Below are positions 24,604 to 24,670 of a stretch of 64,000 bases of DNA, piece by piece (the first letter of the stretch is position 1; every line of letters starts with the position of its first letter). The DNA is from Negaprion brevirostris. Lineage: Eukaryota. A model generated the notes under the pieces. It searched no databases. It was not told the origin of the DNA and was given only the letters and a program-made list of their open reading frames with translations. The position numbers and the translations under genes were made by a program. Location of the stretch: assembly GCA_030324005.1 (NCBI GenBank), contig JARDVH010000124.1:33661423-33725422 (forward strand), read 5' to 3'.

Positions 24604-24652
24604 TTAATTACCTGGAATCTGCGTATGTCTCATGGATTTCCTGCATTCTTCA
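24604..24652 (-). pseudogene. Partial duplicate of exon 7 (3' 41 nt plus donor) inside intron 7
   Basis: ttaattacctggaatctgcgtatgtctcatggatttcctgcattcttca matches 25985-26033 at 46 of 49 positions. Confidence 0.92.
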
Positions 24653-24670
24653 CTGTACTGTTATGTAATA

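What the first reader, a model, noticed from the sequence alone, without database searches (positions are those of the whole stretch)
24604..24660. Partial copy of EBF exon 7 in intron 7 forms a candidate 41-nt poison exon
Seen: 49 nt duplicating the last 41 nt of exon 7 plus its donor (46/49 identical to 25985-26033), about 1.4 kb downstream in transcript direction and in the same orientation. On the minus strand it reads ...aacagtacag|TGAAGAATGCAGGAAATCCATGAGACATACGCAGATTCCAG|gtaattaa, so a CAG sits exactly where homology starts and the donor is identical to the real one. Inference: exon 7 ends in phase 0, so inclusion gives TGA as the first codon, a likely NMD target. Substituting it for exon 7 would frameshift. 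It could also act as a decoy donor. Established: EBF3 is dosage-sensitive in mammals, so such an exon could matter. The polypyrimidine tract is weak, so it may simply be inert.
Basis: partly seen in the sequence, partly recalled or inferred. Interest (0 to 1): 0.75.

Follow-up and report, generated by a model that had tools for sequence, protein, structure and literature searches.

The report
Pasted exon scrap in EBF3 intron
A 49-57 base copy of the end of an EBF3-like gene's exon 7, splice donor included, sits 1.4 kb further into the next intron beside a jumping element; it is likely an inert DNA-repair patch rather than a working "poison" exon, although its splicing is untested.

Summary
In detail: 24604-24652 matches 25985-26033 at 46 of 49 bases (57 nt at 89%, E 3e-14), in the same orientation, with the donor copied. 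Inclusion after exon 7 would begin with a stop. The host gene is EBF3-like (exon 10 is 42/42 to COE3, 40/42 to COE1).

The poison-exon reading is weak. The acceptor is no better than background: 9/17 pyrimidines against an intron mean of 8.2, 255 of 601 intron-7 AGs do as well, and a competing AG lies 3 nt upstream. The stop and the donor are inherited from the copied sequence.

The copy lies 18 nt from the 5' end of a full-length SINE. The window holds two more sharp-ended local duplicates (144 nt and 79 nt, 0.95-1.5 kb from their partners), both at LINE breakpoints.

Best reading: a templated patch pasted from nearby DNA during retroelement integration or break repair, now decaying. No reads or relatives' contigs were laid on the locus, so splicing and conservation remain open. 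Leaky inclusion is about 0.2 likely; a selected poison exon about 0.04.

The parts
24596..24652 (-). Copied stretch: last 41 nt of exon 7 plus the first 8-16 nt of intron 7 (donor)
   Evidence: 46/49 ungapped, 57 nt at 89.5%, E 2.7e-14
24612..24652 (-).
24612..24657 (-). Alternative 46-nt pseudoexon from the upstream CAG, which scores better (11/17 pyrimidines, 31 nt AG-free); frameshift with stop at codon 25
24653..24670 (+). 18-nt spacer between copy and SINE head; supplies both AGs on the minus strand; its first 10 nt equal a LINE 3' tail at 52917-52908 (could be chance)
24671..24980 (+). Full-length SINE, antisense to the gene, 5' end facing the copy; four related copies in the window; resembles shark HE1/V-SINE (recalled, not tested)
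25300..25660 (+). Old, frameshifted CR1-type LINE remnant lying between the two copies (family name recalled)
   Evidence: 25366-25438 matches 45694-45768 at 79%
25977..26033 (-). Source stretch: 3' half of exon 7 and start of intron 7
25993..26074 (-). EBF exon 7 (82 nt), DNA-binding domain
   Evidence: open frame and splice sites in the sequence
17664..17808 (-). EBF exon 8 (145 nt; second in-frame donor after 17691); end of COE1_DBD
   Evidence: Pfam PF16422 positions 197-231, E 4e-15; PDB COE1
10797..10927 (-). EBF exon 9 (131 nt), IPT/TIG domain
   Evidence: Pfam PF01833, E 2e-9
10205..10331 (-). EBF exon 10 (127 nt), IPT/TIG domain, EBF3-type residues
   Evidence: 42/42 to COE3 (3muj, 3n50), 40/42 to COE1

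Best explanation
The 57-nt stretch is a real copy of the exon 7/intron 7 junction, likely pasted 1.4 kb away as a templated patch when a retroelement integrated or a break was repaired, and likely inert. Shown: the copy, its sharp ends, its position 18 nt from a SINE 5' end, a background-grade acceptor, and two similar duplicates at LINE breakpoints in the same window. Inferred: a free DNA end at the insertion site borrowed a nearby template, copied about 57 nt and was joined to the SINE end (or to a tiny LINE-tail scrap in the spacer). Since then the copy has drifted (3 changes in 41 exon bases: one nonsense, one missense, one silent). The spliceosome probably skips it because a donor without a usable 3' splice site does not define an exon.
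For: Sharp-ended 49-57 nt match with no similarity in either flank. SINE head 18 nt away. Divergences are compatible with one event: SINE private changes 4 of 97 (4.1%, CI 1.1-10.2), copy 3 of 41 (7.3%, CI 1.5-19.9). Internal controls: 50428-50571 = 51921-52064 (144 nt, 96.5%, 1493 apart), where the first copy lies inside a continuous LINE-type frame and the second directly abuts the 5' end of a truncated LINE tail; and 54085-54163 = 55035-55113 (79 nt, 90%, 950 apart), where one copy starts at the broken end of a reverse-transcriptase-type piece. Each of the three has one partner in the window, within 1.5 kb (chance 0.03-0.05 each). All three lie within 30 nt of a repeat end (null 0.19-0.21 each, 0.04 for the two controls, 0.008 for all three). 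Extra bases at the 5' junctions of zebrafish L2-clade LINEs derive largely from flanking DNA (PMC4245944 passages; PMC4760211). Acceptor: 9/17 pyrimidines vs 12-13/17 for 4 of 4 real acceptors and an intron mean of 8.2; 255 of 601 intron-7 AGs are equal or better; AG-free zone 3 nt vs 17-57 nt. None of 21 AGs within 300 nt upstream of the copied donor reaches 12/17.
Against: No empty site was seen, so co-insertion with the SINE is inferred only from position and wide, overlapping divergence intervals. The 30-nt proximity threshold was chosen after seeing the data, and the repeat map comes from the window's self-matches only. The papers read describe 'several' extra bases from flanking DNA, not 57 nt from 1.4 kb away. 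The donor and the 8 intronic bases behind it carry no change in the copy, and it is the best donor-like site in intron 7. The splice scoring is crude counting, not a trained model, and the branch-motif test is weak (50% background). Splicing was not measured.
Confidence: 0.62

Rival explanations
1. Same accidental origin, but the piece is a leaky cryptic exon: the intact donor and exon-derived enhancer sequence recruit a weak acceptor (24652, 24657, or 24900 inside the antisense SINE) in a small share of transcripts, which are then degraded. No selected role.
For: Only 8/9 donor among 425 GT sites in intron 7. The 46-nt form has 11/17 pyrimidines and a 31-nt AG-free zone; the 289-nt form has 11/17, 34 nt and a branch-like motif. 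All 21 possible forms hit a stop.
Against: Every candidate acceptor falls below the four real ones. Seven equally good donor-like sites occur in the 35 kb of intron 6 in the window, so such sites are a normal part of long introns.
Confidence: 0.2
2. A selected, regulated poison exon that tunes EBF3 dose in this lineage.
For: Stop at codon 1 with junctions downstream; donor unchanged; YAG exactly at the edge of homology (3.7% by chance). EBF3 haploinsufficiency is reported in humans (PMC5640723).
Against: Acceptor at background level with a competing AG. It is young (about 7% from its source) and lies against a SINE. The stop is a consequence of the copied sequence. Equivalent duplicates arise here without exons. 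Heterozygous zebrafish ebf3a mutants are only mildly affected (PMC12239631).
Confidence: 0.04
3. Long target-site duplication: a staggered break across the exon 7 donor was filled by a 1324-nt insert (24653-25976), so the 'copy' is the original junction with the old intron behind it, and the gene now splices from the upstream duplicate. Still inert.
For: The layout (direct repeat, left flank intron, right flank exon) fits either model. Earlier scan notes describe shorter cases of donor duplication by insertion (unchecked).
Against: The 1324 nt are a mosaic: a SINE, unassigned sequence and a frameshifted LINE remnant only 79% like its nearest relative in the window, which looks older than the duplication. 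In the 144-nt control the source's frame runs through both ends, which is patch anatomy, not target-site anatomy. 57 nt is far longer than the 5-15 bp duplications in PMC4245944.
Confidence: 0.1
4. Assembly artefact in a gapped draft.
For: The window has 100-N gaps, one of them in intron 7 at 19141-19240. The copy was not confirmed in independent reads.
Against: The copy differs from its source at 3 of 49 and 6 of 57 positions, whereas a mis-joined read would be near-identical. The nearest gaps are about 5 kb away on either side.
Confidence: 0.03

Closest known systems
Extra nucleotides at LINE 5' junctions (5' EX; zebrafish ZfL2-1/ZfL2-2; PMC4245944 passages, PMC4760211 parts 1-2 of 4)
   Same: Host DNA from near the insertion site appears at the 5' junction of a non-LTR retroelement.
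   Different: The passages speak of several bases from the flanks; this is 57 nt from 1.4 kb away, with an 18-nt spacer, and the element is a SINE. The empty site was not seen.
Class 2 templated sequence insertions (PMC5110952, part 1 of 4 read)
   Same: A short templated patch with sharp ends, no poly(A) tail and no target-site duplication found.
   Different: Those patches come from distant loci; this one is local and collinear with its source.
Intronic pseudoexons / cryptic exons (general knowledge)
   Same: AG...GT-bounded intronic stretch that would give a premature stop if included.
   Different: Here the donor and body come from the gene's own exon rather than from a transposon or chance sequence.
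Regulated poison exons (AS-NMD; PMC6547761 seen as listing and abstract start only, otherwise recalled)
   Same: Inclusion would trigger nonsense-mediated decay.
   Different: No evidence of inclusion, regulation or conservation; the acceptor is at background level; the host is a transcription factor, not an autoregulating RNA-binding protein.
Tandem duplicated (mutually exclusive) exons, e.g. SCN-alpha exon 5a/5b (PMC12772994, listing and abstract start only)
   Same: An exon-derived copy in the adjacent intron, same orientation.
   Different: Only half the exon is copied, its acceptor is missing, it carries a stop in the native frame, and swapping it for exon 7 shifts the frame.

Membership tests
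Regulated poison exon | Inclusion creates a premature stop more than 50-55 nt upstream of a later exon junction | tested here: met
   Stop at codon 1; exons 8, 9 and 10 follow; the rule itself is recalled
Regulated poison exon | Usable 5' splice site | tested here: met
   Identical to the real donor over -3..+8; 8/9 consensus
Regulated poison exon | Usable 3' splice site (pyrimidine tract, AG-free zone, branch point) | tested here: not met
   9/17 pyrimidines, AG 3 nt upstream, no branch-like motif; real acceptors 12-13/17, 17-57 nt, motif in 4 of 4. Crude counts, not a trained model.
Regulated poison exon | Inclusion seen in RNA and raised by blocking NMD | not tested
   No reads were laid on the locus
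Regulated poison exon | Splice sites and flanks conserved across species | not tested
   Runs of related organisms exist but none was aligned to the locus
Mutually exclusive duplicated exon | Same length modulo 3 as the partner and an open frame | tested here: not met
   41 nt vs 82 nt; stop in the native frame
Templated insertion at a retroelement 5' junction | Inserted sequence matches nearby host DNA with sharp ends | tested here: met
Templated insertion at a retroelement 5' junction | Lies at the element's 5' junction | tested here: inconclusive
   18-nt spacer to the SINE head; the exact SINE 5' end cannot be fixed from four diverged copies
Templated insertion at a retroelement 5' junction | Same age as the element | tested here: inconclusive
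   4.1% (1.1-10.2) vs 7.3% (1.5-19.9): compatible, wide intervals
Templated insertion at a retroelement 5' junction | Empty site in an outgroup lacks both element and patch | not tested
   No outgroup sequence was obtained
EBF3 (COE3) orthologue | Closer to COE3 than to other COE paralogues | tested here: inconclusive
   Exon 10 is 42/42 to COE3 and 40/42 to COE1; no COE2 or COE4 chain was returned and no tree was built
HE1 / V-SINE of sharks and rays | tRNA-derived head, V core, HER1-derived tail | not testable with these tools
   No repeat library available; the family is listed for sharks in PMC3747384 (table passage); the resemblance is recalled

The most novel reading that the evidence does not exclude
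Retroelement integration in this genome routinely pastes 50-150 nt from 1-1.5 kb away at insert junctions (three cases in 60 kb). Here it built, in one step, a ready-made decay-inducing exon out of EBF3's own exon end and donor, which is spliced and has been kept across related species as a dial on EBF3 dose.
Probability: 0.06. Interest if true: 0.65.

Novelty: new member of a known kind. Interest (0 to 1): 0.2.

Why it matters
As an inert patch it matters little: it is a clean example of how local templated copying seeds introns with spare splice donors. The by-product is of modest interest: three such 57-144 nt duplicates in 60 kb, all near retroelement ends and 0.95-1.5 kb from their templates, suggest a frequent process in this genome that could be measured genome-wide. 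If the piece were spliced and conserved, it would be a one-step birth of a poison exon from a gene's own exon in a dosage-sensitive developmental regulator. No paper on an EBF3 poison exon turned up, which cover open-licence PMC and bioRxiv only.

Tried and rejected
No whole genome is held for this window, so no genome-wide count of such duplicates was possible.

Sequencing-run search on 17500-26400: 22 runs in 12 studies hold the stretch or part of it, 11 of them half its words or more; no RNA holder listed. The best holder (X1, 0.93) may be the source sample. None of these was laid on the locus, so they say nothing about the copy itself and are not used as evidence.

A 24-nt SINE-head pattern found nothing in metagenome or viral contigs, so no extra SINE copies were available to fix its 5' end or consensus.

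Rfam: 0 matches in the window. Folding of 24560-24760: z -0.77, 39 of 200 shuffles fold as well, so no special structure. Tandem Repeats Finder: 3 rows, none at the locus.

No copy of the 5' half of exon 7 or its acceptor was found on the far side of the SINE or elsewhere in the window, so 'whole exon duplicated, then split by the SINE' is rejected. Intron sequences behind the two donors do not align beyond about 16 nt, so a decayed 1381-nt tandem duplication is rejected. Use as a distal alternative donor for exon 7 would add 1381 nt with a stop at codon 5; judged unlikely because an identical donor sits at the exon itself.

Pfam and PDB did not name two LINE-like pieces; the Atlas gave leads only (Exo_endo_phos_2 cluster at 0.93; RVT_1/RTJK clusters at 0.94). 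One search had the end of exon 9 off by two bases, which spoiled its 'normal' translation; corrected, acceptor and donor counts unaffected.

Literature searches without a direct precedent. No supplements were read.

Full report
Observation. On the minus strand, 24652-24604 matches 26033-25985 at 46 of 49 positions; blastn extends the match to 57 nt at 89.5% (E 2.7e-14), 1381 nt apart in the same orientation, with no similarity on either side. The copied stretch is the last 41 nt of an 82-nt exon (26074-25993) and the start of the following intron. The three differences in the exon part (24632, 24624, 24621) are, in the native frame, one nonsense, one missense and one silent change. The copy is real in the assembly and far beyond chance.

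Host gene. Exons at 26074-25993, 17808-17664, 10927-10797 and 10331-10205 have canonical splice sites, and exons 8-10 join in one open frame. They encode the end of the COE DNA-binding domain (Pfam PF16422; PDB COE1) and the IPT/TIG domain. Exon 10 is 42/42 identical to COE3 and 40/42 to COE1, so the gene is EBF3-like; no tree was built. Earlier exons were not found up to 64000. That the organism is a shark is recalled from the look of its repeats and was not tested.

Could it be spliced? The donor is identical to the real one and is the only GT of 425 in intron 7 with 8 of 9 consensus matches. The acceptor is poor. It has 9 pyrimidines in 17 positions, against 12, 13, 13 and 12 for the four real acceptors and a mean of 8.2 for intron-7 AGs; 255 of 601 AGs in the intron do as well. 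Another AG lies 3 nt upstream, against AG-free zones of 17-57 nt at real acceptors. No branch-like motif precedes it, whereas 4 of 4 real acceptors have one, but half of all intronic AGs do too (1967 of 3909), so this counts little. Of 21 AGs within 300 nt upstream of the copied donor none reaches 12/17; the best are 24657 (46-nt exon) and 24900 (289 nt, inside the antisense SINE). All forms lead to a premature stop. The YAG exactly at the edge has a 3.7% background rate, and 88% of positions have some AG within -12..+15, so an acceptor-like site near the edge is expected. These are simple counts, not a trained splice model.

Origin. On the plus strand the copy is followed by 18 nt and then the head of a full-length SINE (24671-24980) with three more copies in the window. 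The SINE shows 4 private changes in 97 informative columns (4.1%, CI 1.1-10.2); the copy shows 3 in 41 (7.3%, CI 1.5-19.9): compatible with one event but not proof. The first 10 nt of the spacer equal a LINE 3' tail at 52917, which may mark a tiny LINE scrap or be chance.

Internal controls. The window holds two other sharp-ended direct duplicates, each with one partner within 1.5 kb (chance 0.03-0.05 each). For 50428-50571 = 51921-52064 (144 nt, 96.5%), the first copy lies inside a continuous LINE-type frame that runs through both its ends, and the second abuts the 5' end of a truncated LINE tail at 52063 (Atlas lead to a LINE endonuclease cluster). For 54085-54163 = 55035-55113 (79 nt, 90%), one copy begins where a reverse-transcriptase-type piece breaks off. 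All three duplicates lie within 30 nt of a repeat end; the null is 0.19-0.21 each, 0.04 for the two controls and 0.008 for all three, with the threshold chosen after the fact and a self-derived map of 31 repeat intervals. Published work on zebrafish L2-clade LINEs finds extra bases at about half of 5' junctions, largely templated from flanking DNA (PMC4245944, passages; PMC4760211, parts 1-2 of 4), and templated patches at breaks are known in humans (PMC5110952, part 1 of 4). The case here is longer and more distant than those passages describe.

Rivals. (a) Leaky, unselected inclusion cannot be excluded, given the intact donor (0.2). (b) A selected poison exon (0.04) would need inclusion and conservation, neither shown; EBF3 haploinsufficiency is reported in humans (PMC5640723, passages), while zebrafish heterozygotes are mildly affected (PMC12239631, passages). 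(c) A 57-nt target-site duplication around a 1324-nt insert (0.1) fits the layout and was prompted by earlier scan notes, but the interval is a mosaic that includes an old frameshifted LINE remnant. (d) An assembly artefact (0.03) is unlikely because the copy has diverged and the nearest gaps are about 5 kb away.

What stays open. No reads or relatives' contigs were laid on the locus, so presence in sister species, the empty site and splicing are untested. One search lists DNA runs of related organisms in which these checks can be made.

Verdict. Observation confirmed; interpretation only conditionally right. Most likely an inert templated patch of a known kind that happens to include a splice donor. 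Interest 0.2; 0.65 if inclusion and conservation were shown (probability about 0.06).

Noticed in passing
window 50428-50571 and 51921-52064: 144-nt direct duplicate at 96.5%, 1493 nt apart; the second copy is an excerpt of an older LINE-type frame pasted directly at the 5' end of a truncated LINE tail (52063-52190).
   Followed up: yes
window 54085-54163 and 55035-55113: 79-nt direct duplicate at 90%, 950 nt apart; the first copy starts where a minus-strand reverse-transcriptase-type piece (54164-54350) breaks off.
   Followed up: partly
window 46512-46541 and 46867-46896: 30-nt inverted duplicate at 93%, two copies only, about 355 nt apart; possibly another small templated patch.
   Followed up: no
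window 17664 and 17691 (minus strand): Exon 8 has two GT donors 27 nt apart, both in frame, adding or omitting a 9-residue linker between the DNA-binding and IPT domains; a similar alternative is recalled for mammalian EBFs.
   Followed up: partly
window 23491-23589: Inverted repeat with 38-nt arms, 84% complementary, 23-nt loop, in intron 7; could be a small DNA-transposon remnant.
   Followed up: no
window 16554-16788, 20837-21011, 30598-30925: Three more copies of the same SINE family, 16-29% diverged from one another.
   Followed up: partly
window 55232-55434: Start of a LINE reverse-transcriptase fragment (Pfam RVT_1, E 9e-6) running into a 988-N stretch.
   Followed up: no
window 1-10204 and 26075-64000: No EBF exon beyond 10 or before 7 was found by motif scan, so the intron upstream of exon 7 is at least 37.9 kb; 23 N-runs (4237 bases) could hide exons.
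   Followed up: no
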